Position numbers and translations under genes: made by a program. Below are positions 16,109-37,707 of a DNA stretch of 47,064 nt, one piece after another. This DNA comes from Phycisphaerales bacterium JB064 (GTDB lineage Bacteria > Planctomycetota > Phycisphaerae > Phycisphaerales > UBA1924), in the NCBI GenBank assembly GCA_044439825.1, contig JBITAB010000092.1:1-47064 (forward strand), written 5' to 3'. Position 1 is the stretch's first letter; the number at the start of each line of letters is the position of its first letter. A model generated the notes under the pieces. The model was not told where the DNA came from. It was given only the letters and a program-made list of their open reading frames with translations, and did no database searches.

Positions 16109-16111
16109 CTT

Positions 16112-19674: not shown

Positions 19675-19727
19675 CCGCTCGCTCTGACAACCGAAAGCTG
19701 GTCGAGAGGATTCGCGGCAATCCCTCG

Positions 19728-21248
19728 ATGTTCATCGACTACATTTTTGGCTACCGCTCGTGCGAGATGCACAAGCAGATGCAGGCGGCGCTGAGCAGCA
19801 AGTTCCGCGTCGTGCGCATCATGGTTCCTCGCAACCACGGAAAAAGTCAGCAAGTCTCCATTGGTCGCGTCGCCTACGAGATCGGCCAGAACACCGACAA
19901 CCGAATCGGCATTATCCAGGCGTCCAAGGTCGATGCGATGGACACCTCGGGTGCTATTCGGCAGTTGCTCGAAAGCGATCGCTACCGGCAAATCTTCCCC
20001 AACGTCAAGAAGACGCGAGATTGGGGCAAGGAGAGCCTGACGGTCGAGCGGTCGCGAGTTGGCGACAAGAACCCAACGATCAAGAGCCTGCCGTGGAACG
20101 GCAACGCTGGATTCCGCACCGACATCCTGCTCGGCGACGACATGGAGAGCTTCCGCAACTCGATCCTCGAGCCCGCGACACGGCCGCAGGTCATCGAAGC
20201 GTGGAACAACATCTGGCTGCCGACGCTGGAGCCCGGTGGGCGCGAGTGGACCTGCTGTACGCCCTGGCACGTCGATGGGCAGGGCTGGACGTGGCGCAAG
20301 CAGGCTGAGGAAGCGCCAGATCAGATCCTGTTCTTCTTCCGAAAGTGCGACGGTACCGCGTCGAGCCCGTGGCCTGAGAAGTTCAGCCCAGAGCACCTGA
20401 AACTCGAACGCGCCAAGATGGGGCCGCTGGGCTACGCCCGCGCGTACCTCATGGAGCCTGGGTCGGGCACCGACACGCTCTTTGCCGAGGAATGGCTGGA
20501 TCGGTCTGGGTATTTGAACCCAAACGACGCCACGGGCGGCGTTCGGTGGATGACAACCGACAAGGCGTACAACGAGAAGGACGCGGGGATGAAGGGCCGC
20601 GGCGAGAAGCGCGGCGAGGGCGACCCGTGCGCCTACCTCGTGGCCGACGTGACCAGCCACGGCCAGGTCTTCTGCGTCGAGGCGGCCGAGTATCGCGGCG
20701 GGTTCGAGGCCCACATCAACCGGCTGGTGGATACCTGCAAGCGCCTGAAGGTCAAGCACGCGGACCTGGAGGCCAACGGCCCGCAGAAGGAATTGGCGCG
20801 TCAGGAGGCTCGGGCGCTGGAGGCCGTCGGCGTCACCTGCCACTTCCTCTACCGGGCCGACAAGATGGACAAGTACACGCGGGCGGCGTCGGTCCAGCCC
20901 GTGGCCGAGCAGGGGCGATTCCACCTGTTTGGCCAGCCCGGCGCGTGGCCGACAGGCATGGGCAAGATGCACCGCCAATTGACCGAGTTCCCCTACGCGG
21001 GCCACGACGACCTCGTGGACGTGGCGGTGGACATGATGGCCAAGGTGCGCGATTACGAGCCTCGCGCGTCGGAGATCGAGACGATCGTGGCCAGCGACGG
21101 GGCGAAGGCGCTGGACATCTTCCGGGCCAGCCACATCGAGCGCGAGCTCGACCTGCAGATCGCCCGGCAGAACGGCGGAGACGAGTGGGACGACTGGGAG
21201 CGGCAGATTCGTGATGGATATGACCCGTCCAGGGTTGACCGCTGGTAA
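19728..21248 (+). CDS. terL: terminase large subunit
   Basis: The protein is 506 aa. It has a Walker-A-like VPRNHGKSQ and a Walker-B-like ILLGDDMES. Nuclease-domain acidic motifs are AYLVADV and GHDDLVDVAVDMMA. Confidence 0.9.
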   Translation: MFIDYIFGYRSCEMHKQMQAALSSKFRVVRIMVPRNHGKSQQVSIGRVAYEIGQNTDNRIGIIQASKVDAMDTSGAIRQLLESDRYRQIFPNVKKTRDWGKESLTVERSRVGDKNPTIKSLPWNGNAGFRTDILLGDDMESFRNSILEPATRPQVIEAWNNIWLPTLEPGGREWTCCTPWHVDGQGWTWRKQAEEAPDQILFFFRKCDGTASSPWPEKFSPEHLKLERAKMGPLGYARAYLMEPGSGTDTLFAEEWLDRSGYLNPNDATGGVRWMTTDKAYNEKDAGMKGRGEKRGEGDPCAYLVADVTSHGQVFCVEAAEYRGGFEAHINRLVDTCKRLKVKHADLEANGPQKELARQEARALEAVGVTCHFLYRADKMDKYTRAASVQPVAEQGRFHLFGQPGAWPTGMGKMHRQLTEFPYAGHDDLVDVAVDMMAKVRDYEPRASEIETIVASDGAKALDIFRASHIERELDLQIARQNGGDEWDDWERQIRDGYDPSRVDRW

Positions 21249-21283
21249 CATTTGCGGCCTAGGCTTGGTACAAGGAGTACGCT

Positions 21284-23242
21284 ATGGGCCGCTTCGGCAT
21301 GCCTCCGGGGCCTGATCAGGCCATGATGGCCCGCAGTTCCACGTGGAACGCTGGTGCTGCGCCACAGCCCGCCATTGGCGGCGGGGGCATCATCACTCCC
21401 ACTGGTACCGGGGAAATCTGGGCGTTCTCGAAGACGATCCGGGCGGCCCGCAAGGCCAGAACGCAGCACGAGCCCCTGTGGGACCACTGGCGGCGGCAGT
21501 TGCAAGGGCGCTGGTACAAGGGCGAGGGTCCTGTCCGCATGGAGAATGTCGAGTTCTCCTACGCGTGGCGCATTCTGCAGGACGTGGCGGCGCGGCTGCC
21601 CAAGGTCAGCGTGCGGGCTCGCAAGGAGTTCGTCGATGCGATGACGGCCAAGCTGCACGAGGTCGCGGTGAACGCGATCTTCGACCGCCAGAAGTTCCAT
21701 GACGAGCTTCGGATGGCCGTGCACGACTCCCTGTACGCGGGCGGGTTCATCAAGACCGGCCTGCACCCGACGAGCGGAGCCTTTGGTGGGGACATGCTGG
21801 CGGCGGACGCGGGGCTGCTGGACGGCACGGGCGGCGGGTTCGACCCGACCATGCCCTTTGCCGAGCGGATCAGCCCGTGGACGATGCTGTGGGACGACGC
21901 GGCCGAGCACTGGAACAAGACCGAGTTCTACGGCCACGAGTTCATGCGGAGCCTCGACGCGGCGATCCAGGACGATCGCTACGACATCAACGCGCGACTC
22001 ATGTTCCGGGACCAGACGAGCCTGCTGAGCGAGGCCGAGCGCCATCGCCGGTACGGGCACATCGAGAACCTGGGCCCGATGATCCGGCTGGTGGAGCTTT
22101 GGGTCCGTCACACCAACGAGCTCTGGACGCTCTATGAGGTCGGGCCGACCGAGTTCCGCGTCGTGCGGAAGGTGCCCTTCCACGGGCCCGATCGTGGCCC
22201 GATCCGCTGCCTGGGCTATCTGAACGTGCCCGACAAGGTGCTGCCGTACCCCCTGTATGCGGGCTGGCGCGACCTTGCGGCTGAGCACGAGATCAACCTG
22301 CGGCAGATGACGCGCCAGCACGGGGCGTACAAGCGCGTGGCGACGGTATCGGGTCAGGCGGCCAAGAAGGACGGCAAGCTGATCCAGAAGGTGGACGACG
22401 ACCACCTGATCGAAGCCGATGAGCAGACCAAGTTCGGGTCGATCGAGATTGGCGGCCTGAGCGACACGGTCGTGAAGTGGTACGGGCTGGTCGATGGCCT
22501 GCTGGACCGCCAGAGCGGCCTGACGGACATGCGGATGGGCGTGGCCGGCCAGGGCAACACGGCGACCGAGACGAGCATCGTCAACAACAACGCGAGCTCG
22601 TCGATCCAGGAGATGCGCCGCAACGTCGGCCGCTTCGTCGAGGACATCGCCGACGACATCGGCTGGTACGTCCACAACGACCAGAGCGTGATGGTGTCTG
22701 GCACGATCCGCGGCGAGGACGGGATGCCGGCGGACATCGAGGTCTATGGCGGCATGGACATCGACCCCATGACCGGGCTGCCCATCGAGGGCCAGAGCGG
22801 CTGGGAGGACTTCTACACCAGCGTGAACCCGGACGAGCTCTGGATCTCGACGGACCAACTGGACAAGGCGCAGGCGCGTGAGCAGGCCGAGTTCGTGCTG
22901 GGCATCCTGCGTCCGGCGCTCAACAGCCAGGGCTTCGACATCAACATGCTGTCCTTCGCTCGAGACACGAGCGAGAAGATGGGGATGCGTTCGATCGAAA
23001 GCTGGATCGTGCCCATGAACCCGATGGCGATGGCGATGGGCATGCAGAGCATGATGAGCGAGCCGGGCGGCGGGCAGATCAAGGACGCGATGACGACTCG
23101 GCAGCCTGGCGCTGACCCGGTGCAGAGCGGGATCATGAACGGAGCGGCCAATCCGGCCATTAGCGCCGCCACACAGGCGGCAAGCCCGATGCGCGAGGCG
23201 ATGACGCCCGCAGGGAGCAACAACAGCCCAAGGGGGATGTGA
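21284..23242 (+). CDS. portal protein
   Basis: The protein is 652 aa and lies directly after terL, with SD ACAAGGAGTACGCT-ATG. The call rests on size and position; no motif was recognised by eye. Confidence 0.75.
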   Translation: MGRFGMPPGPDQAMMARSSTWNAGAAPQPAIGGGGIITPTGTGEIWAFSKTIRAARKARTQHEPLWDHWRRQLQGRWYKGEGPVRMENVEFSYAWRILQDVAARLPKVSVRARKEFVDAMTAKLHEVAVNAIFDRQKFHDELRMAVHDSLYAGGFIKTGLHPTSGAFGGDMLAADAGLLDGTGGGFDPTMPFAERISPWTMLWDDAAEHWNKTEFYGHEFMRSLDAAIQDDRYDINARLMFRDQTSLLSEAERHRRYGHIENLGPMIRLVELWVRHTNELWTLYEVGPTEFRVVRKVPFHGPDRGPIRCLGYLNVPDKVLPYPLYAGWRDLAAEHEINLRQMTRQHGAYKRVATVSGQAAKKDGKLIQKVDDDHLIEADEQTKFGSIEIGGLSDTVVKWYGLVDGLLDRQSGLTDMRMGVAGQGNTATETSIVNNNASSSIQEMRRNVGRFVEDIADDIGWYVHNDQSVMVSGTIRGEDGMPADIEVYGGMDIDPMTGLPIEGQSGWEDFYTSVNPDELWISTDQLDKAQAREQAEFVLGILRPALNSQGFDINMLSFARDTSEKMGMRSIESWIVPMNPMAMAMGMQSMMSEPGGGQIKDAMTTRQPGADPVQSGIMNGAANPAISAATQAASPMREAMTPAGSNNSPRGM

Positions 23243-23832
23243 TGGAAGTCGAAAGTGGTGTTGGTGGGTATGGATCGCACGCATCGGAAGAAAAGATTCT
23301 GTTTGATCGCATGATGAATATGCTTCTGCAAGAAGAAGGCCAAGGTGGGAACTGTTCGCAGAGGATCGAACGCCTTCAGACAAAGGCCGAGGAAATGTCG
23401 AGGTCTGGCATGTCTATGGATCTGCGATTCCTCGGCGGACTCGCCTTGGCTGGTTTTGCAAGGTTTATGATTCACTGTGATCGACAGTTGGACCGTATTC
23501 ACGTTGACAACCAGACAAAGCGAGCATGGCTAGACAGGAAGGTTAAGGGTGGAGGCGTCCCATTGTGGTACGACAACGACGACCGTTACGAGCATGAGAT
23601 GGATGCGATTCATCACGGTCGTTGCGAAGCTGCTTATCGCCGTGGGTTTCAACAAGGTATGGTTTGCGCGCAAGGCATTCTCAAGCACATGGGGTTAGAC
23701 GGTGCTGCGGCAAGACTTGATTACCCGGCCAAGAACTTGGCAGAGTCCATGCGATTTGACGGCAAGCCGCACACAGACTACATGAACGAAATTGCTGCCA
23801 AAACCCTTGGCGTTCCGTGGGGTGACGAGTGA
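23242..23832 (+). CDS. hypothetical protein, first gene of glyco-island 1 (AT-richer codon usage)
   Basis: Track ORF 23239..23832. The ATG at 23242 overlaps the portal stop (TGATG). It has visibly more A/T-ending codons than its neighbours. Confidence 0.65.
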   Translation: MEVESGVGGYGSHASEEKILFDRMMNMLLQEEGQGGNCSQRIERLQTKAEEMSRSGMSMDLRFLGGLALAGFARFMIHCDRQLDRIHVDNQTKRAWLDRKVKGGGVPLWYDNDDRYEHEMDAIHHGRCEAAYRRGFQQGMVCAQGILKHMGLDGAAARLDYPAKNLAESMRFDGKPHTDYMNEIAAKTLGVPWGDE

Positions 23833-24572
23833 TTGCCAGTGTTGTGACGACGTACAACCGTCCTGAGCAGTTGGCCAAGACGCTGCCGCAGATTGCGGCG
23901 TTGGGCGCGCCGGTTCTGGTGGTGGATGATGGGAGTGACGCCCGCCTTCACGCCGAAGGCGACAAGGTCAACGCTTCACATGGATTCCGAGTGCATGTTG
24001 CATGTTGTGATTGTGGCATTGAGCACTACATCCGGCTACACAGCAATCGCGGCCTCGCCTGCGCCCTGAACATCGGCCTGTCCTACTGGCTGGCCGACCC
24101 CGAGGTCGAGTTCATCAGCGTGTTCCAGGACGACTGCGACATCGACCCGGACCTGCACCGGGTGATGCTCGAAGTGTGCCGCTCGTTCGACCGCGACGCT
24201 CGAACCCTGTTTACGGGCTTCGACGCCATCGAGCATGGCAAGGGGCATCTGCAGGCCGTTCAAGGGATCGAGGTCTACGAGAAGCAGACCGGCGGCGGCG
24301 TCCACCTATTCGGGCGTCGGCACGTCTGGGAAAGCCTCATGCCGATCCCCTCGCTCGGCGTCGGCCTGCCGCGTGACGGCATGGGCAGCCGAGTGGACTT
24401 CAACCTGACCAGCCATGCCCGAGGCGGCGCTGTGCCCCTGCTGTGCGTGCCCGGACTCGTGAGCCATCGCGCGTGGAAGGGCGAGGATTCGACGTGGTGC
24501 CGATCCGATCGCGTGTGCGGCAAGGATGGCCCGCTCGATCGCAGCGCCATCAAGGGCTGGGTGCCGGCATGA
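23829..24572 (+). CDS. family-2 (GT-A) glycosyltransferase
   Basis: The N-terminus reads VIASVVTTYNRPEQL...VLVVDDGSD and is followed by a DXD-like FQDDCDID. The GTG start overlaps the upstream stop (GTGA). Confidence 0.8.
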   Translation: MIASVVTTYNRPEQLAKTLPQIAALGAPVLVVDDGSDARLHAEGDKVNASHGFRVHVACCDCGIEHYIRLHSNRGLACALNIGLSYWLADPEVEFISVFQDDCDIDPDLHRVMLEVCRSFDRDARTLFTGFDAIEHGKGHLQAVQGIEVYEKQTGGGVHLFGRRHVWESLMPIPSLGVGLPRDGMGSRVDFNLTSHARGGAVPLLCVPGLVSHRAWKGEDSTWCRSDRVCGKDGPLDRSAIKGWVPA

Positions 24573-24772
24573 TGCAGTTCTTTATCGCGGCGTCATTCTT
24601 GTGCTGGTCTATATGGTTTTTCGTTGGGACGCTGCGCATCTTGACGGGCAAGTACGAAAGGCGTATTGACGAAGTGTACGCGCTTGCCAAACACTGCTTT
24701 TGCGCCCACGCCGCAGGCCTGTTACTAGCTCTGGTGACGCTTGCAGTGCAACAACTTGAGGCGTTGACATGA
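24569..24772 (+). CDS. small 2-TM membrane protein
   Basis: This is the inner part of track ORF 24443..24772. The ATG at 24569 overlaps the GT2 stop (ATGA). Hydrophobic segments are FFIAASFLCWSIWFFVGTL and AAGLLLALVTLAV. Confidence 0.6.
   Translation: MMQFFIAASFLCWSIWFFVGTLRILTGKYERRIDEVYALAKHCFCAHAAGLLLALVTLAVQQLEALT
24752..24761 (+). promoter_or_regulatory. near copy of the CAACTTGAGGA box (CAACTTGAGGc) on the plus strand
   Basis: 10 of 11 positions match. It lies 7 nt upstream of the ATG at 24769. Confidence 0.6.
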
Positions 24773-25545
24773 CCGTGGTATTCGGCCCCTACGTCGGCGA
24801 GTTCGGCTGGGAGGTTCGCGCCTGGGCTCCGCACGTCTACGCGCGTGTGGTTCGGATGCGTGTTGCCGGCGACCAGACGCCGGTGACGATCATCGCCAAG
24901 GAGGGCAGCCGCGCGCTGTACGAGCCTGCGCTGGCGCTCAAGGGCGTGGAGTTCTGCACGCGCGAGGACTGGCCGAAGGAGCCTGCCGAGTACATGCACC
25001 TGCACCATCCCGGCGCGCAGCGAGCATGGGAGGAGCGCCTGGACGAGCAGACTTCGCTGTTAAAGATCGCGGCGATCCGTCCGAAGCCTGGGCTTGCCTT
25101 TGCCGAGTCGTGTCTGGAGGACATCAAGAAGCATGGGTATGAGGCCAACCCAACAACGCAATCTGGCTACATGATTGCGATATGCCGGCGAGACCGCGCT
25201 GACCTTGCGCCTGAGCGCAATTACCAACGGTGGGACGACCTGAGGGATCATCTGGTTGACACGGCGACGCCTCACAATTGGGTAAGCAAGACATGGTCTT
25301 GCGTTGCCCTTGACGATCTTCGATCCGCGCCAGTTGCGGTCGGCGAATCCTCCGGCCCCATGCACCTTGCCATCACGGCGGGCGTGCCGATCGTGACGTG
25401 GGGCAAGCCTGGGACACGCGAGAAGTACGAGCACGATAACTGGCATGGCGTGCCGATGCGCATCATCGACGGGCTCCAGCCCGAACCACAGGCCATCGCT
25501 GACGCGGTGGCGGATTTGCTCGAGGAGGTCTCTGGTGGGGTATAA
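24769..25545 (+). CDS. GT-B glycosyltransferase, family-9 (heptosyltransferase)-like
   Basis: VAVGESSGPMHLAITAGVPIVTWG matches the nucleotide-sugar-binding motif of GT9 enzymes (DSGPMHLAAA.G.P). It has an ATGA overlap with the upstream gene. Confidence 0.7.
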   Translation: MTVVFGPYVGEFGWEVRAWAPHVYARVVRMRVAGDQTPVTIIAKEGSRALYEPALALKGVEFCTREDWPKEPAEYMHLHHPGAQRAWEERLDEQTSLLKIAAIRPKPGLAFAESCLEDIKKHGYEANPTTQSGYMIAICRRDRADLAPERNYQRWDDLRDHLVDTATPHNWVSKTWSCVALDDLRSAPVAVGESSGPMHLAITAGVPIVTWGKPGTREKYEHDNWHGVPMRIIDGLQPEPQAIADAVADLLEEVSGGV

Positions 25546-26134
25546 CCCGGTGGAATATTGGAAGGGTCGGTACGAGCAGCAGGGCCCGGTCTACGTGGCC
25601 CGGCATGGCATGACGCCCGAGCAGGCGGCCGGACAGGCCGGGATGTTCAGGAAGGCCATCGATCGGACGCGGGGCCGAGTGCTGGACTACGGGTGCGGCG
25701 TCGGCCGTCTGGCTGCCTACCTGTCCGAGACGGCGCACGAGTACGTCGGCATGGACATCTGCGAGGGTGCGCTGGAGTTCGCCCGCAAGGCGCACGGGTC
25801 CAACAACGTCCTCTTTGAGCCCGCATCAGGGCTGCATCTGCTGCCCGATGGCTACTTCGACCTGACGGTCTGCTGCACGGTCCTCCAGCACGTCCCTGAC
25901 GAGGACATCGACCGCGTAATGGCGCAACTCAAGCGCGTCACCAAGGGCCGATTCTGCATCATCGACAGCGCCGAGTTCGACAGCACGGCCGAGCATATGT
26001 TCCCGCGCGAGCCCCGAGAGTTCACGAGATGGCTCGACCTGCAAGAGCCGATCAAGCGGATGCTCGACGTGGACCATCGCGGCTCGCACTACGTCCTGAC
26101 CGGACGCGCCGCAACCGACATCGTGGCCGCTTAA
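25535..26134 (+). CDS. class I SAM-dependent methyltransferase
   Basis: This is the inner part of track ORF 25445..26134. The GTG at 25535 is preceded by GAGGAGG. Motif I is VLDYGCGVGRLAAYL, with later motifs YVGMDI and CCTVLQHVPDEDI. Confidence 0.85.
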   Translation: MGYNPVEYWKGRYEQQGPVYVARHGMTPEQAAGQAGMFRKAIDRTRGRVLDYGCGVGRLAAYLSETAHEYVGMDICEGALEFARKAHGSNNVLFEPASGLHLLPDGYFDLTVCCTVLQHVPDEDIDRVMAQLKRVTKGRFCIIDSAEFDSTAEHMFPREPREFTRWLDLQEPIKRMLDVDHRGSHYVLTGRAATDIVAA

Positions 26135-26167
26135 CAACACTGAATCGACAAGCATTATCTTTTCTTC

Positions 26168-26206
26168 GTGGCGCAACTCATATTGAGTCTGCGCCACGCT
26201 TGTTTT
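26168..26206 (+). terminator. intrinsic terminator ending the terminase-portal-glyco unit
   Basis: GTGGCGCAACTCA-TAT-TGAGT(C)TGCGCCAC is followed by GCTTGTTTTG. Confidence 0.7.
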
Positions 26207-26270
26207 GTGGTGGTCTGGGCAATTCCGACAAGCGAAACATTAGTGTTTCTACGGATGCTGCCCTGTTTAT

Positions 26271-26594
26271 ATGCCAATGTACGAGTTCCGCGCCGAGACC
26301 GGAGAGGTCATCGAGCGGTTCTATCGCATGAACGACACTCGGCCAGAGGTCATCGTCGAGGATGGCGTCGAGTATCGCCGCGTCTACAGCGCCGTGCAGG
26401 TTGACGACGGGCGGCGCAAGGGCCAGTACCCCTACGTCAGCCACGCCATCGCCGGAACCCCGGCGGCGCGCGACTGCAAGCACGTAGACGCCCCGGTGGC
26501 CGGTGGGAAGCACAACGAGCGCCTGCCGCTTGTCGAGAGCCGCGCCCACGAGGAGCGGCTGATGGGCAAGCACGGCATGTACAAGCGCGAATAG
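26271..26594 (+). CDS. hypothetical protein
   Basis: Track ORF with no clear SD. The N-terminus MPMYEFRAETGEVIERF resembles FmdB-type zinc-ribbon N-termini but lacks the cysteines. Confidence 0.55.
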   Translation: MPMYEFRAETGEVIERFYRMNDTRPEVIVEDGVEYRRVYSAVQVDDGRRKGQYPYVSHAIAGTPAARDCKHVDAPVAGGKHNERLPLVESRAHEERLMGKHGMYKRE

Positions 26595-26602
26595 GAGCAA
26601 GC

Positions 26603-27790
26603 ATGGACCCGAAGGATCTGACGAACGCCGCTGGCAAGCCCGCAAGCCTCAAGATGGCCGACACCGGCCCCTCCGTCGAGGAGATGGAGGATGCTGCGAT
26701 GGATTCGCTCCTGGATGGCAACGCCCCCGGCGAATCCGAGCAGCCCGAGCAGCGCGGCCAGACGCTCCAGGACGGCCTGATGGCGGCCGCGCGTGCGGCG
26801 GACCAGCAGCACCAGACCCAGCAGGAGATCGAGGAGCCGCCCCCGGCGACGGAATTGTCGATGGGCGAGCAGATGTTCCTCAGCCGCTCGGGCTACAGCG
26901 CCGAGCAGGTCGAGACGATCCGCGGCATGTCGCCCGAGCAGCGCGCGATCCTGTGGTCGAAGCTCGAGACCCCCGGCGGCTTCCAGAACCAGCAGCCGCA
27001 GTTTGGCCAGCCGAACCCGTACCTGAGCCAGCAGCAGCCCTGGCAGAGCCAGCAGCAGCCCTGGCAGAGCCAGCCGCAGTTCTACCCAAGCCAGAACGCG
27101 CCGCAGCCGCAATTCCGAACGCAGGGCCAGCAGCCCGTCACATGGAACCAGCAGCCCCAGTTCACCCAGCAGCAGGGCTACCAGCCCCAGCAGCAGCCCG
27201 GCTACCCGCAGGTGGACCAGCGGCAGTTGCAATCGCTGGCCGACCAGATGGGCGTGGACGCGGCGGCGCTGCAGGGCCTCACCCAGTTCCAACTCGATCA
27301 GGCCGCCGCTCGCTTCCAGCAGCACCAGCAGCAGAACGATCAGCGGTTCGAGCAGATGCAGCAGCAGTTCGAGCGCGTGCAGGCCGCCCAGCGCGAGCAG
27401 CACGTCACCCGCTCGATGGACGAGGCTTTCCAGGCCATCACCCAGCGATACCCGCAGTTTGGCACGCGCGGCGACTTCGATCGCCTCGTGCTGGATCGCA
27501 CCGTGGCGGCGCAGGCCCGCTACATGGAAGAGAACTTCGGCGTCCCTCTCAGTCAGGCGTTGGCGGCGACGGTCGAGCAGATGGTCGCTCCGCAAATGAA
27601 CCAGCAGATGGGCCGCACCACACAGCAGCAACTCCACCAGAACGCCCGGCGGGCACGAAACACCGCCGAGCGGACCCCGCAGGTTGGCCGGGCTCCCGCC
27701 CCGCCGGCGCTCCGCGAGGGCCGCGATGGCGTTGACGACTACGTGGACCAGTTGCTGCGGCAGGGCGCGTTCGACCAGCGCGCCGGATAA
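26603..27790 (+). CDS. scaffolding protein candidate (Q-rich)
   Basis: It lies immediately upstream of the capsid gene. It is 395 aa with an acidic N-terminus, a long Q/P-rich low-complexity centre and a helical C-terminus. Confidence 0.6.
   Translation: MDPKDLTNAAGKPASLKMADTGPSVEEMEDAAMDSLLDGNAPGESEQPEQRGQTLQDGLMAAARAADQQHQTQQEIEEPPPATELSMGEQMFLSRSGYSAEQVETIRGMSPEQRAILWSKLETPGGFQNQQPQFGQPNPYLSQQQPWQSQQQPWQSQPQFYPSQNAPQPQFRTQGQQPVTWNQQPQFTQQQGYQPQQQPGYPQVDQRQLQSLADQMGVDAAALQGLTQFQLDQAAARFQQHQQQNDQRFEQMQQQFERVQAAQREQHVTRSMDEAFQAITQRYPQFGTRGDFDRLVLDRTVAAQARYMEENFGVPLSQALAATVEQMVAPQMNQQMGRTTQQQLHQNARRARNTAERTPQVGRAPAPPALREGRDGVDDYVDQLLRQGAFDQRAG
27028..27069 (+). repeat. perfect 21-bp tandem duplication
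   Basis: CCAGCAGCAGCCCTGGCAGAG occurs twice in tandem and encodes QQQPWQS x2 within the scaffold candidate. Confidence 0.95.
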
Positions 27791-27806
27791 GCAGGAGGGC
27801 TGACCA

Positions 27807-28922: not shown

Positions 28923-28949
28923 TCCGGGCTGTAGCCCAGGAGGTTTATC

Positions 28950-29354
28950 ATGCCCGTGACCGTGAATCTCAACAGCGCTCTCCCGCAGAACTGGGGGATC
29001 GACATCCCCTGCCGTGCGGCGGAGAACCTGACGCTCGGCAACATCGTCTTTCTGACGCAATCCGGCGGCAACTGGCACGCGAACCAGAGCAACGGCGTGA
29101 CCGATCCCGGTTTCGCCGGCGTGGCGCTGGCGACCGTGGCCAGTGGCGCGAGCGTGCGCGTCAAGGTGCAGGGCATCGCCGTGGTGTCCACGAGCCTGAG
29201 CGGTCTGTCTGGCGCTGCCCAGAACCTTCCGCTGGCTCCGGCCGCCGCCGGCGCGTGCGCGCCGCGTTCGACTTCGCTGACCCCCGCTCTCGGCACCGTC
29301 TGGTCGCTTGCGAACAACCAGATCAAGCTGAACGGCTGGGGCCCGCACGCCTGA
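28950..29354 (+). CDS. head decoration/cement-like protein
   Basis: The protein is 134 aa, G/A/V-rich and beta-type, and lies directly after the capsid gene. Confidence 0.45.
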   Translation: MPVTVNLNSALPQNWGIDIPCRAAENLTLGNIVFLTQSGGNWHANQSNGVTDPGFAGVALATVASGASVRVKVQGIAVVSTSLSGLSGAAQNLPLAPAAAGACAPRSTSLTPALGTVWSLANNQIKLNGWGPHA

Positions 29355-33213: not shown

Positions 33214-35496
33214 ATGACCTGGACGCGCGTGACCGGCCAGCCCAAGGTGCTCCTGCACAACGGGTCGGGTCGTGACGTGGCCATTTCCGGGATGCAGAGC
33301 GGGAGCGGCGAGTTCGATCCCGACCAGATGCTCCGGGACATGGGCACGTATCTGGTGACGGCCGGGCGCGCGGACCACCTGATCCGTTGGGCGCTGCACA
33401 CCAGCGAGGACGGACGCCAGTGCATCGAGGCCGGGATCTTCGAGGGCAATTCGCTTGACGCTGCCGATTCTGGAGCGCGCGGCAGCGGCTTGTACGCGGC
33501 CATCGTCCGAGTCAACTGGAACGACGCGCTCTCGGAGGCGGACGCATGGACTGTCCTGGCGGCGTCGAGCGGCGATCTGGTGTCGATCAACGCGATCGGC
33601 AGCACGACGACCAACGACGTGGAGATCGAGCCACGCATCGAGGCGGGCAACATCCACGTTCGGATCTATGGCCAGCGTGTGACCCCGGACTACGCCCTGA
33701 CGCCAGCCGACTACCCCGAGTTCACGGACTTCGGGGTGGTGACCGAGGTCGACCAGGCGACCGCCAAGTTTGGCCGCGTCTGCGGGCTGGACGCGATCAC
33801 AAGCAGCGCCGGGCAGATCATCTGCATCATCTCGAATGGCGTGCTCTACGTCAGCGAGGGGTTCGGGACGCCGGTGCGCAAGGGCCCGATCTGCCGGGGA
33901 TCGGACACCCAGCCGAGCGCGACGGTCTACGACGCCCGACTGTTCGTGGTGGACGGTCAGGTCGCAAACTACTACGACGCCTCCGACGACACGATCTACC
34001 CGTGGGGGCCGGTGGATGCGGACTACTGGGACTCGACGACGACGGGCTACCTGCCGGGAGCGCCGGTGGACCCGAGCGGGGCGGATCGTCGCCAGATCGG
34101 GGTGACGACGGCGACGGTGGTGACGACCCACCTGAACCGCGTCATGCTCGCCGGGATGCCCGAGGCCCGCGCTGACGTGTGGGCCAGCGCCGTGGGCGAC
34201 CCCTTCGACTACAACCTTGGCGCTCTGACCGATGGACGCGCATGGCGTCTGGCGACCGAGTTGTCCGCCGGCCAGCCGCGCACGCCCATCACCGGCATGT
34301 GGTCCTACGCCGACGACTACCTCCTGATCGGCGGTCTGGGCGACATCACGATCCTGCGCGGCGATCCGGTCTTCGACCAGGGCCGCGTTGGCCTCGTGAC
34401 GACCGACGCCGGGATTCCGCACAAGACGGCCGCCTGGGTCAGCGATCGCGGCGTGGTCTACGCCGTCACCGAGCAGGGCCTTGCCGTCATCGCCGGCGAC
34501 CAGATCACCTACCCGTCCAAGGACGTGCTCACGCACACCATCGCCAAGCTGAGCAACGCCAACCGCTACCGCACGCGGATCGTGCACGACGCCGACCGCT
34601 ATGGCGTGCTGATCGCCTTCGACCCGGTGGCGGCCACGGAAGTCTCCACGCACCTGTGGTGGGACGTTCGCACGATGGGCTTCTTCCCCGAGCAGTACCC
34701 CGTGGACATGGGACCGACCGCCCTGGCTCGCGTCGGCAACCGGATGCTGCTGGGCTCGAGGGACGGCTACGTCTACGAGTTCTCCGACGCGTCCAAGGCC
34801 GACGAAACGCCCGATGGCGGGCAGGCGATCGATTCCTACGTCCCCCTCACGCTCATGCACAACACCGAGGACCCGTCGCGGGCCATGCGCCTGACGACGT
34901 GGACGCTGGTGAAGGACACGCGCAGCGACGAGATCGACGTGTACGTGCAGGGTGCCAACACGGCCGAGTTCGCCTACCGCAGCCCCAAGATCAAGATCGC
35001 CACGCGCACGAGCGGATCACGGACGGTGCGCACGCGGCCGGTCAGGGCCCAGAGCGTGGTCATCTTCCTCCACAGCCCGGTGCAGGACGGGGCGAGCTCG
35101 TGGGCGTTCGAGAACTGCGTCGCCGAGTGGATGCCCGGTGGCGTCGTGCTCGAATCCATCACCGAGAGCTATTGCGGCGCGTCCGGCAGCGGGTCGGGAT
35201 CTGGCTCGGGCAGTGGGTCTGGTTCCGGGTCGGGCTCGGGCAGCGGCGGCGGGTTCGGCGACCCTGGCGCTGGATCGGGCTCGGGGTCTGGCTCTGGCGA
35301 CCCCATCGAGAGCGGTAGCGGGTCGGGCGTGTTCGGCCCGATCCCAAGCGGCTCGGGCGGCACGACGCCGGGCGGGGCGGTCTTTGGCCCCATCAGCAGC
35401 GACATCATCTCGCCCAACACCACAGGCGTCGGCGACAACGCCGGCGCGAGCGGCGCGGCGGGCAGCGGCGAGTTCGGCTGGGGGATGAGTTCATGA
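33214..35496 (+). CDS. large tail/virion protein with C-terminal (SG)n tail
   Basis: The protein is 760 aa. The C-terminal 100 or so residues are SGSGSG... and G/S/P-rich. Its stop overlaps the start of the next gene (ATGA). Confidence 0.75.
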   Translation: MTWTRVTGQPKVLLHNGSGRDVAISGMQSGSGEFDPDQMLRDMGTYLVTAGRADHLIRWALHTSEDGRQCIEAGIFEGNSLDAADSGARGSGLYAAIVRVNWNDALSEADAWTVLAASSGDLVSINAIGSTTTNDVEIEPRIEAGNIHVRIYGQRVTPDYALTPADYPEFTDFGVVTEVDQATAKFGRVCGLDAITSSAGQIICIISNGVLYVSEGFGTPVRKGPICRGSDTQPSATVYDARLFVVDGQVANYYDASDDTIYPWGPVDADYWDSTTTGYLPGAPVDPSGADRRQIGVTTATVVTTHLNRVMLAGMPEARADVWASAVGDPFDYNLGALTDGRAWRLATELSAGQPRTPITGMWSYADDYLLIGGLGDITILRGDPVFDQGRVGLVTTDAGIPHKTAAWVSDRGVVYAVTEQGLAVIAGDQITYPSKDVLTHTIAKLSNANRYRTRIVHDADRYGVLIAFDPVAATEVSTHLWWDVRTMGFFPEQYPVDMGPTALARVGNRMLLGSRDGYVYEFSDASKADETPDGGQAIDSYVPLTLMHNTEDPSRAMRLTTWTLVKDTRSDEIDVYVQGANTAEFAYRSPKIKIATRTSGSRTVRTRPVRAQSVVIFLHSPVQDGASSWAFENCVAEWMPGGVVLESITESYCGASGSGSGSGSGSGSGSGSGSGSGGGFGDPGAGSGSGSGSGDPIESGSGSGVFGPIPSGSGGTTPGGAVFGPISSDIISPNTTGVGDNAGASGAAGSGEFGWGMSS

Positions 35497-36395
35497 ACCT
35501 GCTGGAGAACCCCGCAAACGGCATCGGCGACGCGATCCTGTTCGCGTGGCTGGCGGTGCACGCCAAGGCCGCCGGGATCGACGTGGGCCTGTACATGGAC
35601 CGCCACCACGACTGGGTGGCCCCTGTCGTCGGCGTGGACGCACTGCTGACCTGCCGCTCGGGCGAGGCATCCCGCGATCGCACCAAGGCGTGGGAAGCCA
35701 TGTGCACGGCCGAGAAGCTGATGCGCAACCGCGGCGAGGCCAAGCACCGCCTGGACGCCTGGGCCAAGCACTTCGGATTGGAGCTCGACGGCTTCGAGCG
35801 CCCGGTGTGCGAGATCCACCCGCACGATCAGGCGTTCGCCGACGAGTGGTGGGCACGGACGGCGACGGACACCAAGGTCGCCAGCGACGCCCTGCGCGTG
35901 CTCGTGTTCCCGGCCTGTGCCTGGGCCCAGCGCCGCTGGCCGAAGGCGTACTGGATCGACGTGGCCGGGAGCCTCAAGGAGTGCGGGCACGCCGTCCTGG
36001 CGATGGTCGAGAGCGACGCGGACCAGAAGCATTGCGGCTTCCCGTTCGGGCTCTGGGGCACGACGCCTGGCCAGTGCTGGGCGATCGTGGCCGGTGCCGA
36101 CGTGGTGCTGAGCGCCGACACGGGGCCGGCGCACCTCGCGGCGACGCTGGGCAAGCCCGTGGTGGTGGCGCAGGGGCCGACGCGCGCGGAGTGGGTGTTC
36201 GGGCACGCGGCCGACACCATCACGTCGGTGAGCGGTTCGAGGCCGTGCACGGGCTGCGATCTGGAGACCGAGAAGGGGTTTGCCGACCACTGCCTGCACG
36301 GGTGCCAGAGCCTCATGGACCTGACGCCGCGCGTGCTGCTGGCGGCGGCCCTCGAGGTCTGCGCCGAGGCCAAGGCGGAAAGGGCCATCGCGTGA
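35493..36395 (+). CDS. GT9 (heptosyltransferase)-like glycosyltransferase 1
   Basis: Motifs are an N-terminal NGIGDAILFAW, the donor-binding VVLSADTGPAHLAATLGKPVVV, and a C-terminal Cys motif PCTGC...C.HGCQSLMDL. Confidence 0.8.
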   Translation: MNLLENPANGIGDAILFAWLAVHAKAAGIDVGLYMDRHHDWVAPVVGVDALLTCRSGEASRDRTKAWEAMCTAEKLMRNRGEAKHRLDAWAKHFGLELDGFERPVCEIHPHDQAFADEWWARTATDTKVASDALRVLVFPACAWAQRRWPKAYWIDVAGSLKECGHAVLAMVESDADQKHCGFPFGLWGTTPGQCWAIVAGADVVLSADTGPAHLAATLGKPVVVAQGPTRAEWVFGHAADTITSVSGSRPCTGCDLETEKGFADHCLHGCQSLMDLTPRVLLAAALEVCAEAKAERAIA

Positions 36396-37327
36396 CGCAC
36401 ACCAGCCACCGCACCGACCACGGCCTGACGGTCATCGACGCCTGCTACGACGGGCTCGGGGACGCCATCACCTACGCCTGGATCGCGCGCACGGCGGCCG
36501 ACAACGGCGAGCCCGTGGCGGTCAACTTCGGGCGCTGGCACGACGTGGCGGTCCTGCTGGACGTGGAGCCGTGGGCGACCTTCGAGCACAGCGATCGCTA
36601 CTACACCCAGCGCAGCGGGTTCAGCAAGCACCACCTGGGCGAGATCGAGGCGGTGTTCGACTGGCATCGTGACGGCGGCGACATGCCCACACGCTTCGCC
36701 TCCTGGTGCGCCTTCTTCGGGGTCGATGGTGGCCAGCCGTCGCGGCCCATGTACGTCGAGGACGAGCGCGACGCGATCGAGGCGGAAGCCTCGTGGAAGG
36801 CCGTGCGCGAGGGCTTGCAGAAGGCGGGCAAGGCCGCCGATGGGCCGGTGGTGGTCCTGTCCCCGATCGCCAATTCCGCCGAGCGGTCGTGGCCGATGGC
36901 TCGCTGGGGCGAGCTGGCCAAGACGATGATCGAGGCCGGGTGCGTGGTGGCCGTGGTCGTGCCCGATGGCGTGGACCCCAAGCACTTCCCGGCGGTGATC
37001 GGGACCGAGCGACTGGGCTCGCTGTTCGCCATCGTGCAGAGGGCCGATCTGGTCATCAGCGGCGACTCCGGGCTCGCGCACGTTGGCGGGACGCTGGGCG
37101 TGGCGACGCTCGTGGTCGCGGGCGGGACCGACCCTGCCGTGGTGTTCAGCCACATGGGCGAGGTCGTGACCTGGGTGGGCAACGACGAGATGGCCTGCAC
37201 GGGCTGCCACTGGGACACGGACAAGGGCTATCGGCGGGCGTGCCAGAGCGGCTGCCAGAGCCTCCTGACGCTCTCGGTCGATCGCGTGATGGACGCGGCC
37301 GATGCGAGGCTGGAGGTGCGCCGATGA
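36392..37327 (+). CDS. GT9 (heptosyltransferase)-like glycosyltransferase 2
   Basis: This is the last 311 codons of track ORF 35546..37327. The GTG at 36392 overlaps the upstream stop (GTGA). Motifs are DGLGDAITYAW, LVISGDSGLAHVGGTLGVATLVV, ACTGC...CQSGCQSLLTL. Confidence 0.8.
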   Translation: MTHTSHRTDHGLTVIDACYDGLGDAITYAWIARTAADNGEPVAVNFGRWHDVAVLLDVEPWATFEHSDRYYTQRSGFSKHHLGEIEAVFDWHRDGGDMPTRFASWCAFFGVDGGQPSRPMYVEDERDAIEAEASWKAVREGLQKAGKAADGPVVVLSPIANSAERSWPMARWGELAKTMIEAGCVVAVVVPDGVDPKHFPAVIGTERLGSLFAIVQRADLVISGDSGLAHVGGTLGVATLVVAGGTDPAVVFSHMGEVVTWVGNDEMACTGCHWDTDKGYRRACQSGCQSLLTLSVDRVMDAADARLEVRR

Positions 37328-37707
37328 GCAGGGCTGGCGCAGCGCACGGCGGGGCGGACCCGAGGGACACGAGTGCGATTCGTCGGACGCTGCGCCAGTT
37401 GCAGAAGGGCGTCGAGGACAACCTGTTCTCGTCGGCGGGCGGCACGGTCAGCCTGACCTTCGCAGACAGCCCGCACGACCTGAAGCGCCGGACGCTCATG
37501 GCGTTTGCCGACACGACCGGCGGGCAGGTGGTGGTCAACCTGCCGACTTCGGACAGGTCCATGAAGGTGCTCGTGGTGCAGACGGACGGGGCGAACGGCA
37601 TCGTGCTGGCGGCCCAGAGCGGCCAGACCATCGACGGCGTGGCCAGCGCGTCGGGCGACAGCAGGTGGGTAGCGACTCCCGGCAACGGGGCTTGGCACAC
37701 GATTTAG
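37324..37707 (+). CDS. hypothetical virion-associated protein
   Basis: This is the inner part of track ORF 36706..37707. The ATG at 37324 overlaps the upstream stop (ATGA). Confidence 0.65.
   Translation: MSRAGAAHGGADPRDTSAIRRTLRQLQKGVEDNLFSSAGGTVSLTFADSPHDLKRRTLMAFADTTGGQVVVNLPTSDRSMKVLVVQTDGANGIVLAAQSGQTIDGVASASGDSRWVATPGNGAWHTI

What the first reader, a model, noticed from the sequence alone, without database searches (positions are those of the whole stretch)
23242..26134. Sugar-modification island translationally coupled to the portal gene
Five genes lie between the portal and the scaffold/capsid genes: an unknown 196-aa protein, a GT2 glycosyltransferase, a 67-aa 2-TM protein, a GT9-like GT-B glycosyltransferase and a SAM methyltransferase. 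Every junction from the portal stop onward is an overlapping start/stop (TGATG, GTGA, ATGA, ATGA, 11-nt overlap). The unit ends at a strong terminator (26168-26206). These genes should therefore be made late, together with portal and terminase. The first three genes have visibly AT-richer codon usage, which suggests acquisition. Classical lysogenic-conversion gtr cassettes sit near int/att and are expressed from the prophage. Virion glycosylation by structural-operon glycosyltransferases is known in a few mycobacteriophages but is rare. A GT2 + GT9-like + methyltransferase + small membrane protein set in this position is not a described arrangement as far as I know.
Basis: partly seen in the sequence, partly recalled or inferred. 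Interest (0 to 1): 0.7.

Follow-up and report, generated by a model that had tools for sequence, protein, structure and literature searches.

The report
Swappable sugar-enzyme cassette behind phage portal
A previously unseen phage carries, right after its portal gene, a fast-changing and exchangeable block of sugar-adding and methylating enzymes, part of four glycosyltransferases wired into its particle-building genes, which suggests but does not prove that it sugar-coats its own particle.

Summary
Five tightly overlapping genes lie between the portal gene and the head genes: an ORFan (g1), a GT2 glycosyltransferase (g2), a 67-aa two-helix membrane protein (g3), a GT9-like GT-B glycosyltransferase (g4) and a class I SAM methyltransferase (g5).

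- **The site is a cargo slot.** Only five related metagenomic phages exist. In them the same portal-to-g6 slot holds different cargo: a GT-A + g4 + methyltransferase set, a sulfotransferase, a DUF4406 protein plus a methyltransferase, or almost nothing.
- **The island diverges faster than its flanks.** In the nearest relative the portal and capsid proteins are 91-94% identical. The island enzymes are 65-68% identical, g1 is replaced and g3 is absent.
- **g4 and g5 form an old two-gene module.** Their 11-nt overlap is kept even in an unrelated 105-kb phage.
- **There is a second glycosyltransferase site.** Two bona fide GT9 genes sit directly after a 760-aa tail-module protein that ends in a 106-aa Ser/Gly-rich tail.

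All enzymes are soluble. There is no Gtr-type machinery and no gene for a hydroxymethylated DNA base. My best reading is cytoplasmic glycosylation of virion proteins with a methyl-capped glycan (about 0.4-0.45). The main rival is remodelling of host LPS or capsule (about 0.3). The acceptor is untested. This is a new variant of a known kind, of moderate interest.

The parts
21284..23242 (+). Portal gene. Its last codons (..AAGGGGGATGTGATG) carry the Shine-Dalgarno-like run and the stop/start overlap that launch the first cargo gene.
   Evidence: The junction GGGGGATGTGATGG is conserved in window, L005 and L001 although the downstream gene differs; L002 has GGGGGATGTAGTGG.
23242..23832 (+). g1: 196-aa ORFan, predicted all-helical, 52% GC. 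Function unknown. Only its C-terminal ~60-aa motif (YRRGFQxG...MRFD..PH..YM) recurs, in three small proteins.
   Evidence: No hits in Pfam, PHROGs or NCBIfam. Representative search and alignment. AF2 pLDDT 53, unusable. Replaced by an unrelated 99-aa gene in L005.
23829..24572 (+). g2: soluble GT2 (GT-A fold) glycosyltransferase.
   Evidence: PF00535 at 35 bits, above the cut-off. DDGSD and QDDCD motifs, no hydrophobic segment. 68% identical to the L005 orthologue and 29% over 156 aa to an L006 protein.
24569..24772 (+). g3: 67-aa protein with two hydrophobic helices, 52.5% GC. An insertion specific to this phage.
   Evidence: hydropathy; composition; clean indel relative to L005, where the GT2 gene overlaps g4 directly.
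24769..25545 (+). g4: short GT-B glycosyltransferase of a GT9-related (heptosyltransferase-type) family.
   Evidence: 73 homologues. 19 of 66 hit PF01075. AF2 pLDDT 85. Foldseek top hits WaaC, 3tov and TibC. hhalign probability 96% against bona fide phage GT9s. Invariant G10-E11-F12-G13-x-E15 and G192..G196..H199-L200 (GESSGPMHLA).
25535..26134 (+). g5: class I SAM-dependent methyltransferase, coupled to g4 by an 11-nt overlap.
   Evidence: Methyltransf_25 and Methyltransf_11 at E ~1e-17. 80%, 68% and 43% identical to the L001, L005 and L006 partners. The 11-nt overlap is the same in all four phages (and the gene tables).
26167..26211 (+). Hairpin (26167-26198: 14 pairs, one bulge, 3-nt loop) followed by GCUUGUUUUGUGG. 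Possibly a partial terminator or a stabiliser of the mRNA 3' end.
   Evidence: (-21.8 kcal/mol, z -4.28). Not conserved in L005. Missed by the consensus scan.
26271..26594 (+). g6: conserved 107-aa core gene that forms the right border of the cargo slot.
   Evidence: 48-50% identical in L001, L002 and L003, and 93% in L005. No family match.
33214..35496 (+). 760-aa tail-module protein. Its last 106 residues (nt 35176-35493) are 37% Gly and 29% Ser/Thr, and they are my candidate glycan acceptor.
   Evidence: The L010 homologue (P0083, 40% identical) has the same kind of tail and is followed by a methyltransferase, an FkbM methyltransferase and a GT9. The distant L011 homologue has neither the tail nor any GT.
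35493..36395 (+). GT9a: bona fide family 9 glycosyltransferase, ATGA-coupled to the 760-aa gene.
   Evidence: PF01075 at 48.6 bits, E 8e-13. Junction.
36392..37327 (+). GT9b: second family 9 glycosyltransferase, GTGA-coupled to GT9a. It has a CxxC...C...C four-cysteine knuckle.
   Evidence: PF01075 at 53.1 bits. Start codon. 54% identical to the GT9 at L001:5985-6914, with conserved Cys269, 272, 284 and 288. Best solved relatives are WaaF and WaaC.
37324..37707 (+). 127-aa gene of unknown function, ATGA-coupled to GT9b. It closes the second cargo block.

Best explanation
The stretch 23242-26134 is the current cargo of a hypervariable slot in the late operon of a new phage lineage. The slot lies between the portal gene and core gene g6.

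Shown:
- The portal's last codons provide a ribosome-binding run and a stop/start overlap that is kept whatever gene follows.
- In this phage the cargo is a glycan-building cassette made of soluble enzymes: a GT-A (GT2) transferase, a GT9-type GT-B transferase (g4), and a SAM methyltransferase (g5) that is always coupled to g4 by the same 11-nt overlap.
- The cassette also carries two recent AT-rich additions, the ORFan g1 and the 2-TM protein g3.
- The cassette is exchanged between phages and diverges much faster than the flanking structural genes.
- A second block of two GT9 genes follows a tail-module protein that ends in a Ser/Gly-rich tail.

Inferred:
- The genes are translated in small amounts along with the virion proteins late in infection.
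- They use host nucleotide sugars. ADP-heptose is the likely donor for the GT9-type enzymes. The window encodes no sugar-nucleotide pathway.
- They build a short oligosaccharide in the cytoplasm, whose terminal sugar g5 methylates.
- The most likely acceptor is a virion protein made at the same time. The disordered Ser/Gly-rich C-terminal tail of the 760-aa protein is the best candidate.
- The result would be a variable glycan coat on the particle.
For: Anatomy and families.

Variable slot (sulfotransferase confirmed):
- L001: 100 aa + a GT-A-like 243 aa + g4 (62% identical) + methyltransferase (80%).
- L005: 99 aa + GT2 + g4 + methyltransferase.
- L002: 96 aa + a sulfotransferase (PF13469, 38.5 bits).
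- L003: 62 aa + a DUF4406/DUF6378 protein + a Methyltransf_24 protein.
- L010: two small genes only.

Mosaicism:
- Against L005, portal 94%, capsid protein 91% and g6 93% identical, but GT2 68%, g4 65% and methyltransferase 68%.
- The nucleotide identity profile shows sharp breaks at the portal stop and at the g6 start.
- The window methyltransferase is closer to that of distant L001 (80%) than to that of near L005 (68%).

Module conservation: g4 + methyltransferase with an 11-nt overlap also occurs in L006, a 105-kb contig with DnaG, DnaB and Dam genes. There it is joined by both GT-A types and a sulfotransferase-like protein.

Timing and place:
- All 8 cargo junctions overlap, while most core head and tail genes have spacers.
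- No sigma-70-like promoter was found inside the island.
- No enzyme has a hydrophobic segment, which fits action in the cytoplasm, where virions assemble.

Acceptor clue:
- GT9a and GT9b directly follow the 760-aa protein with its Ser/Gly-rich tail.
- L010 keeps the pairing of a Ser/Gly-rich tail with a GT9 and methyltransferases. L011 has neither.
- GT9-fold enzymes can O-heptosylate proteins, as TibC does (PMC4358343), and TibC is among the structural neighbours of g4.
- In mycobacteriophages glycans sit on the C-termini of the capsid and tail-tube subunits (as summarised in PMC12619734).

Donor clue: a g4-family gene lies beside PfkB, CTP_transf_like, HAD-like and epimerase genes, an HldE/GmhB/HldD-like set.
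Against: - No experiment or expression data exist. The acceptor is pure inference.
- The best-known job of GT9 is heptosylation of the LPS core, and g4 relatives sit in large polysaccharide-type clusters.
- In L006 the cassette lies beside replication genes, not structural genes.
- The capsid protein has no Ser/Thr-rich C-terminal extension.
- The link between a Ser/Gly-rich tail and GT9 genes rests on two phages with both and one distant phage with neither.
- Ser/Gly-rich stretches are also ordinary flexible linkers.
- g3 is a membrane protein, which hints at an envelope connection in this phage.
- Slot cargo in L003 (DUF4406, Methyltransf_24) does not look glycan-related, so the slot itself has no single function.
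- A weak integrase-like gene leaves lysogenic expression possible.
Confidence: 0.42

Rival explanations
1. Host-envelope remodelling. The transferases and the methyltransferase act on lipid-linked host glycans (LPS inner core or O-antigen, or capsule precursors) at the cytoplasmic face of the membrane. This changes the cell surface to block superinfection or to stop progeny sticking to debris. If the phage is temperate, it would act as a conversion function.
For: - GT9 relatives are LPS heptosyltransferases: WaaC and WaaF are the top sequence and structure matches.
- g4-family genes sit in polysaccharide-type clusters with sugar-nucleotide genes.
- g3 is a small membrane protein.
- The window has a weak integrase-like gene plus RecT, YqaJ and RusA genes, which suggests a temperate phage.
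- Fast diversification is also typical of O-antigen modification loci.
Against: - No Gtr-type parts are present: no flippase, no polytopic GT-C, and no C-terminal TM helices on the GT2.
- Both glycosyltransferase blocks are translationally chained to structural genes, with no internal promoter detected. Expression in a lysogen, or early enough to renew the surface, is therefore not expected.
- g3 is absent from the relatives that carry the cassette.
- No prophage copy was found among 185,579 species genomes.
Confidence: 0.3
2. Another acceptor or no shared pathway. The cassette makes or decorates a soluble or lipid small molecule, such as a glycolipid or a methylated oligosaccharide like the mycofactocin glycan. 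Alternatively the slot just collects unrelated accessory genes that do not work together.
For: - Slot cargo differs widely between relatives, including a DUF4406 protein with a Methyltransf_24 protein and a lone sulfotransferase.
- g2 and g5 weakly resemble MftF and MftM (E 0.0035 and 8e-7, far below the cut-offs).
- The substrate of g5 cannot be assigned from sequence.
Against: - GT-A + g4 + methyltransferase travel together in four phages, always with the same g4|methyltransferase overlap. That argues for one pathway.
- The Mft similarity is far below the family thresholds.
Confidence: 0.15
3. DNA glycosylation. The transferases decorate modified bases in phage DNA to evade restriction, as in T-even phages.
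For: Phage glycosyltransferases that hypermodify DNA are well known (Pyle et al. 2024, cited in PMC12619734). L003 carries a nucleoside-deoxyribosyltransferase-like gene in the same slot.
Against: - Pfam scans of 45 window ORFs found no thymidylate-synthase-like hydroxymethylase, no hydroxymethyl-nucleotide kinase and no phage DNA polymerase.
- Neither GT2 nor GT9 enzymes are the known DNA glycosyltransferase types (my own knowledge).
- The island enzymes have no tblastn match in deposited phages.
Confidence: 0.05

Closest known systems
Virion glycosylation in actinobacteriophages (Che8 and other cluster F1 mycobacteriophages; Freeman et al. 2023, known here only through PMC11256854, PMC12619734 and PMC13313380)
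   Same: Phage-encoded soluble glycosyltransferases, sometimes with a methyltransferase, are thought or shown to put glycans on virion proteins made in the cytoplasm. The glycans sit on C-terminal regions of structural subunits.
   Different: - Those glycosyltransferase genes lie near the 3' end of the genome, not chained to the portal or tail genes (PMC11256854).
- The hosts are Actinobacteria.
- There is no sequence relation: tblastn of g2 and g4 against 50,697 phage records found nothing.
- Here the enzymes are GT9-type, and the only candidate acceptor is a tail-module protein, not the capsid.
LPS core heptosyltransferases WaaC/WaaF (CAZy GT9) and the GT9-fold protein heptosyltransferase TibC
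   Same: g4 shares the GT-B fold and the C-terminal GxxSGxxHLA nucleotide-sugar motif. GT9a and GT9b pass the Pfam GT9 threshold.
   Different: - g4 is about 70 residues shorter and fails the Pfam threshold itself.
- It has a GEFGWE N-terminal motif where the enzymes of this family usually have a GD motif (the phage GT9s have G[LI]GDA; the comparison with WaaC is from memory).
- It lacks TibC's beta-barrel domain and iron finger.
- The phage GT9s have a four-cysteine knuckle that WaaF lacks. It resembles TibC's iron finger only by analogy (PMC4358343).
- Donor and acceptor are untested.
Gtr-type serotype-conversion cassettes of temperate phages (GtrA/GtrB/GtrC)
   Same: A phage-borne GT2 enzyme lies beside a small membrane protein, and the cassette is variable.
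   Different: - g3 has 2 helices and no GtrA match.
- g2 has no C-terminal membrane anchor.
- There is no polytopic GT-C.
- The cassette is not next to int/att.
- It is translationally coupled to late genes.
Chlorovirus PBCV-1 capsid-glycan enzymes (two glycosyltransferase domains plus a methyltransferase domain in one protein, A064R; from memory)
   Same: The enzyme logic is the same: two transferases plus a methyltransferase that caps a sugar of a virus-made capsid glycan.
   Different: That is a eukaryotic giant virus with fused domains, and no homology was shown here. A PBCV-1 protein of unknown function (Q89398) is only a weak structural neighbour of g4.
Moron or cargo slots in phage late operons
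   Same: A fixed insertion point between conserved structural genes whose content differs between close relatives and has deviant base composition.
   Different: The cargo has no promoter/terminator pair of its own. It relies on stop/start coupling to the portal gene. The cargo is repeatedly a group-transfer enzyme (glycosyl, methyl or sulfo).

Membership tests
GT2 glycosyltransferase (GT-A fold, PF00535), for g2 | Profile match above the curated threshold | tested here: met
   35 bits against a cut-off of 23.3, E 1.7e-8. The L005 orthologue also carries PF00535.
GT2 glycosyltransferase (GT-A fold, PF00535), for g2 | Nucleotide-binding DDGS-type motif and DxD metal motif | tested here: met
   VVDDGSD at residue 33 and FQDDCDID at residue 101.
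GT2 glycosyltransferase (GT-A fold, PF00535), for g2 | Glycosyl transfer from a nucleotide sugar | not testable with these tools
   Needs an enzyme assay.
CAZy GT9 / PF01075 heptosyltransferase family, for g4 | Profile match above the curated threshold | tested here: not met
   g4 itself has no Pfam hit. 19 of 66 family members hit PF01075 at E<=0.01, best 2.3e-7. So g4 belongs to a GT9-related family rather than being a certified member.
CAZy GT9 / PF01075 heptosyltransferase family, for g4 | GT-B two-Rossmann fold with GT9 enzymes as nearest structures | tested here: met
   AF2 pLDDT 85, pTM 0.84. Foldseek top hits are WaaC (6e-6), 3tov GT9 (TM 0.59) and TibC. hhalign probability 96% against phage GT9s.
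CAZy GT9 / PF01075 heptosyltransferase family, for g4 | C-terminal G-x-(D/E)-(S/T)-G-x-x-H-L-A sugar-nucleotide motif | tested here: met
   VGESSGPMHLA, with G192, G196, H199 and L200 invariant in 66 sequences. It aligns to the DSGxAH motif of the phage GT9s.
CAZy GT9 / PF01075 heptosyltransferase family, for g4 | ADP-heptose as donor | not testable with these tools
   Only a contextual hint: an HldE/GmhB/HldD-like gene set lies beside a family member.
Class I SAM-dependent methyltransferase, for g5 | Profile match above threshold and motif I (D/E-x-G-x-G-x-G) | tested here: met
   Methyltransf_25 at 63.8 bits and Methyltransf_11 at 62.8 bits. LDYGCGVGR is present. The substrate class cannot be assigned.
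Gtr serotype-conversion cassette (GtrA/B/C) | GtrA-type flippase, membrane-anchored GtrB, polytopic GtrC, and a position near int/att | tested here: not met
   No such domains. g2 has no hydrophobic segment, and g3 is 67 aa with 2 helices. The island lies between the portal and head genes.
Actinobacteriophage virion-glycosylation system | Homology to its glycosyltransferases | tested here: not met
   tblastn of g2, g4 and GT9b against 50,697 phage records found no match.
Actinobacteriophage virion-glycosylation system | Glycans on C-terminal regions of virion subunits | not testable with these tools
   There is only a candidate acceptor, the 106-aa Ser/Gly-rich tail of the 760-aa protein. The capsid protein has no such tail.
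BAHT protein heptosyltransferases (TibC/AAH) | N-terminal beta-barrel, beta-hairpin thumb, four-Cys iron finger, dodecamer (PMC4358343) | tested here: not met
   g4 (258 aa) and GT9a/b (300 and 311 aa) are too short for the barrel. g4 has no Cys cluster. GT9a/b have a CxxC..C..C knuckle in the C-lobe, but TibC is not among their sequence hits. Oligomeric state could not be tested here.
Phage DNA glycosyltransferase systems | Co-encoded synthesis of a hydroxymethylated base to serve as acceptor | tested here: not met
   No thymidylate-synthase-like or related domain in the 45 window ORFs scanned.

The most novel reading that the evidence does not exclude
This podovirus-like lineage is probably marine and, given its GT9-type enzymes, probably infects Gram-negative hosts. 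In the boldest reading it glycosylates its own virion using up to four late-operon glycosyltransferases and a coupled methyltransferase. The likely target is the Ser/Gly-rich tail of a tail-module protein, and the likely product a methyl-capped, heptose-type glycan. The portal-proximal slot would then be a swap site that lets related phages change their glycan coat, or replace it with sulfation or other chemistry. That would be the first virion glycosylation system outside actinobacteriophages, and one with built-in cassette exchange.
Probability: 0.3. Interest if true: 0.75.

Novelty: new variant of a known kind. Interest (0 to 1): 0.5.

Why it matters
Phage glycosyltransferases are usually filed under DNA protection or lysogenic serotype conversion. 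Glycosylated virions are so far documented only for actinobacteriophages.

Here a whole lineage wires up to four soluble transferases and a methyltransferase into its particle-assembly operon, and it swaps them as cassettes at a fixed site. No member of the lineage is in INPHARED, IMG/VR, GTDB genomes or JGI metagenomes.

If the target is the virion, several things follow:
- Particle glycosylation would extend to Gram-negative or marine phages.
- The lineage would offer a natural system of interchangeable glycan coats, relevant to phage-host recognition, particle stability and phage engineering.
- It would give a testable function to the many "heptosyltransferase" genes that viromes report as auxiliary genes.

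If the target is the host envelope, this is an unusual late-expressed form of surface conversion. Either way, the tightly coupled g4-methyltransferase pair defines a conserved two-enzyme module worth characterising.

Tried and rejected
- **Close relatives among deposited phages.** Megablast of 19700-29000 found nothing. tblastn of the portal, g2, g4 and GT9b found nothing. TerL gave one 25% hit to a Proteus phage. The methyltransferase gave one 27% hit to a Mesorhizobium phage with an uninformative context.
- **Lineage members in large collections.** I searched IMG/VR, GTDB genomes and JGI metagenomes with the portal protein alone (IMG/VR only), a portal alignment and a capsid alignment. All came back empty. 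The host stays unknown and the comparative set is only six contigs.
- **g1.** It has no family in Pfam, PHROGs or NCBIfam. The exhaustive HMMER search gave three marginal hits. The AF2 model had pLDDT 53, so I ran no fold search on it.
- **Identity of the 760-aa protein.** It has no PHROG, Pfam or PDB sequence hit. The label "nozzle-like" rests on gene order alone. Its homologue search was swamped by the low-complexity tail and returned two hits.
- **TibC-like protein heptosyltransferase membership.** Rejected, because the barrel domain is missing and there is no sequence hit.
- **Gtr-type cassette.** Rejected.
- **DNA glycosylation.** Rejected for lack of any modified-base pathway.
- **Sulfotransferases of L002 and L006.** I checked whether they are orthologues. 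They are not detectably similar by BLASTP and share only the Pfam family.
- **Strong-terminator reading.** Weakened, because the hairpin is not conserved in L005 and the head genes lie downstream.
- **Primary paper.** Freeman et al. 2023 (PMC10527164) is not held, so I used secondary citations.

Full report
**1. The window**

The window is a complete 47,064-bp contig with 65% GC. It has the layout of a tailed-phage genome.
- The left arm, on the minus strand, carries RusA, RecT-like and YqaJ genes and a weak tyrosine-recombinase-like gene.
- The right arm, on the plus strand, runs: DnaA_C/HTH protein, small terminase-like gene, TerL (PHROG 38, E 2e-47), portal, the island, a 107-aa core gene (g6), scaffold, major capsid protein, an SU10-type adaptor, then tail and internal proteins.
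- The lineage is new. Megablast and tblastn against 50,697 phage records found nothing.
- A search of 5.8 billion proteins found only four portal relatives.
- IMG/VR, 185,579 species genomes and JGI metagenomes hold no member.

**2. Check of the observation**

| Gene | Coordinates | Length | Junction with upstream gene |
|---|---|---|---|
| g1 | 23242-23832 | 196 aa | TGATG with the portal stop |
| g2 | 23829-24572 | 247 aa | GTGA |
| g3 | 24569-24772 | 67 aa | ATGA |
| g4 | 24769-25545 | 258 aa | ATGA |
| g5 | 25535-26134 | 199 aa | 11-nt overlap, GTG start |

Family assignments:
- g2 is a GT2 enzyme: PF00535 at 35 bits against a cut-off of 23.3, with DDGSD and QDDCD motifs.
- g5 is a class I SAM methyltransferase, E about 1e-17. 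Its substrate cannot be read from sequence.
- g3 has two hydrophobic helices. None of the enzymes has any.
- g4 has no Pfam hit of its own, but it belongs to a family of about 270-aa proteins, mostly from marine samples.
  - 19 of 66 family members match GT9 and nothing else.
  - Its AF2 model (pLDDT 85) is a GT-B fold whose nearest solved structures are WaaC, the Veillonella GT9 and TibC.
  - A profile-profile comparison with bona fide phage GT9s gives 96% probability.
  - The invariant GESSGPMHLA stretch corresponds to the GT9 sugar-nucleotide motif.
- g1 is an ORFan. Only a C-terminal motif of about 60 aa recurs, in three small proteins, and its model is unusable.

Three qualifications apply:
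- The AT-richness is true for g1 (52%) and g3 (52.5%). For g2 it is true only in the first third.
- The hairpin at 26167-26198 is strong. However, it is not conserved in the nearest relative, it has an interrupted U-run, and it sits upstream of essential head genes. A terminator role is therefore doubtful.
- The tight packing is more than chance. All 8 junctions of the two cargo blocks overlap, against 4 of 16 other late junctions (p about 7e-4 by hand).

**3. What relatives show**

The stretch between the portal gene and g6 is a cargo slot.

| Locus | Relation to window | Slot content |
|---|---|---|
| L005 | portal 94% | 99 aa + GT2 + g4 + methyltransferase |
| L001 | TARA sample, portal 64% | 100 aa + unrelated GT-A-like 243 aa + g4 + methyltransferase |
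| L002 | portal 66% | 96 aa + sulfotransferase |
| L003 | portal 38% | 62 aa + DUF4406/DUF6378 protein + Methyltransf_24 |
| L010 | 760-aa homologue 40% (portal not compared) | two small genes only |

- The portal-end junction GGGGGATGTGATGG is kept in window, L005 and L001 whatever follows; L002 has GGGGGATGTAGTGG.
- Against L005, nucleotide identity is about 92% up to the portal stop. It then collapses: g1 has no match, GT2 is about 75%, g3 is a clean indel, g4 is 48-71% and the methyltransferase 65-84%. It returns to 91-94% in g6 and about 90% in the capsid gene.
- At protein level the flanks are 91-94% identical and the enzymes 65-68%.
- The window methyltransferase is closer to that of distant L001 (80%) than to that of near L005 (68%). 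The cassette is therefore exchanged between phages.
- The g4-methyltransferase pair, always with an 11-nt overlap, also occurs in an unrelated 105-kb phage-like contig (L006). There it sits with homologues of both GT-A types and a sulfotransferase-like gene, beside DnaG, DnaB and Dam genes.
- More distant g4-family genes lie in large sugar-nucleotide, methylation and sulfation clusters on low-GC marine contigs. Several of these look phage-like.
- One of those clusters includes a PfkB, CTP_transf_like, HAD-like and epimerase set reminiscent of ADP-heptose synthesis.

**4. A second glycosyltransferase site**

- Two genuine GT9 genes, 35493-36395 and 36392-37327 (PF01075 at 48.6 and 53.1 bits), and a 127-aa gene are chained by ATGA/GTGA overlaps to the 760-aa tail-module gene.
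- The last 106 residues of the 760-aa protein are 37% Gly and 29% Ser/Thr.
- In L010 the homologous 773-aa protein has the same kind of tail. It is followed by a methyltransferase, an FkbM methyltransferase and a GT9.
- A distant relative, L011, has neither the tail nor any transferase.
- L001 keeps its extra GT9 elsewhere.
- The phage GT9s share a four-cysteine knuckle. It is reminiscent of the TibC iron finger (PMC4358343), but they lack TibC's barrel domain and are closer in sequence to WaaF and WaaC.

**5. How it most likely works**

Shown:
- Soluble GT-A and GT9-type transferases plus a coupled methyltransferase sit in a fast-evolving, exchangeable cassette.
- The cassette is translationally chained to late structural genes.
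- The window has no Gtr-type components, no modified-base pathway and no sugar-nucleotide genes.

Inferred:
- The enzymes are made in low amounts together with the virion proteins.
- They use host nucleotide sugars.
- They assemble a short glycan in the cytoplasm, and g5 methylates its end.

Virions are assembled in the cytoplasm at the time these genes should be translated. The second transferase block directly follows a structural protein with a disordered Ser-rich tail. I therefore favour virion-protein glycosylation, at about 0.4.

The main rival, at about 0.3, is modification of lipid-linked host glycans, which fits the classical GT9 role and the membrane protein g3. The late, promoter-less, coupled arrangement fits that rival poorly, and g3 is absent from the other cassette carriers. 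Other acceptors, or unrelated cargo, take about 0.15, and DNA glycosylation about 0.05.

I rate the robust part separately at about 0.85. That part is a mobile glycan-tailoring cassette sitting in a conserved cargo slot of the late operon.

**6. Comparison with known systems and verdict**

- The functional analogy is with actinobacteriophage virion glycosylation. There is no homology to it, and in that system the genes lie near the 3' end of the genome (PMC11256854), with the glycans on capsid and tail-tube C-termini (PMC12619734).
- The enzymes belong to, or are related to, known families: GT2, GT9 and class I methyltransferases.
- What is new:
  - the position and coupling of the cassette;
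  - its exchange at a fixed slot;
  - the conserved g4-methyltransferase module;
  - the pairing of GT9 genes with a structural protein that has a Ser/Gly-rich tail;
  - the lineage itself.

This makes it a new variant of a known kind. The interest is moderate (0.5). It would rise to about 0.75 if virion glycosylation were demonstrated.

Noticed in passing
window 35493-37707: Two tandem bona fide GT9 genes (300 and 311 aa) and a 127-aa gene are chained by ATGA/GTGA overlaps to the 760-aa tail-module gene. With these the phage has four glycosyltransferases and one methyltransferase in its late operon.
   Followed up: partly
window 35176-35493: The 760-aa protein ends in a 106-aa Ser/Gly-rich low-complexity tail (GSGSGS... 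runs). The 773-aa homologue in L010 has a similar tail and is followed by methyltransferases and a GT9. The distant L011 homologue has neither.
   Followed up: partly
window 36392-37327; 35493-36395; L001:5985-6914; L010:13836-14810: The phage GT9s share an invariant CxxC...C...C four-cysteine cluster in the C-lobe. WaaF lacks it. It recalls the TibC iron finger only by analogy.
   Followed up: partly
window 26271-26594: g6 is a 107-aa gene with no family match. It is conserved in all relatives (48-93% identical) and always marks the right edge of the cargo slot. Its role in head assembly is unknown.
   Followed up: no
window 26131-26158: The only sigma-70-like promoter match in 17-31 kb (TTAACA-16-CATTAT) lies just upstream of the 26167-26198 hairpin, between the island and g6.
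   Followed up: no
window 16036-16183: Two adjacent tRNA genes, tRNA-Asp(GTC) and tRNA-Arg(CCT), lie at the start of the plus-strand arm.
   Followed up: no
window 8984-10507 and 3869-8711: A 507-aa protein has a weak tyrosine-recombinase match (18.7 bits, below the cut-off). RusA, RecT-like and YqaJ genes are nearby. The phage may be temperate, but no prophage copy was found in GTDB genomes.
   Followed up: partly
window 26603-27790: The Gln-rich scaffold protein is only 60% identical to that of L005, while the neighbouring g6 and capsid proteins are 91-93% identical. It is a second fast-evolving stretch in the head module.
   Followed up: no
L002:5451-6020; L003:12050-13308: The same slot holds other group-transfer enzymes in relatives: a Sulfotransfer_3 protein in L002, and a DUF4406/DUF6378 (nucleoside-deoxyribosyltransferase-like) protein plus a Methyltransf_24 protein in L003.
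   Followed up: partly
L012-L015 (TARA contigs, 38-39% GC); L008/L009: g4-family genes sit in large clusters with NDP-sugar synthesis, aminotransferase, radical-SAM, sulfotransferase and APS-kinase genes. In L012-L015 these lie next to giant (1700-2600 aa) proteins, and L014/L015 also carry a GH25-containing protein, so several are probably marine phages that encode elaborate glycan pathways.
   Followed up: no
window 23242-23832 (residues 128-190 of g1): A small conserved motif, E..YRRGFQxG...MRFD..PH..YM, is shared with three 79-121-aa metagenomic proteins. It may be a new mini-domain of unknown function.
   Followed up: partly
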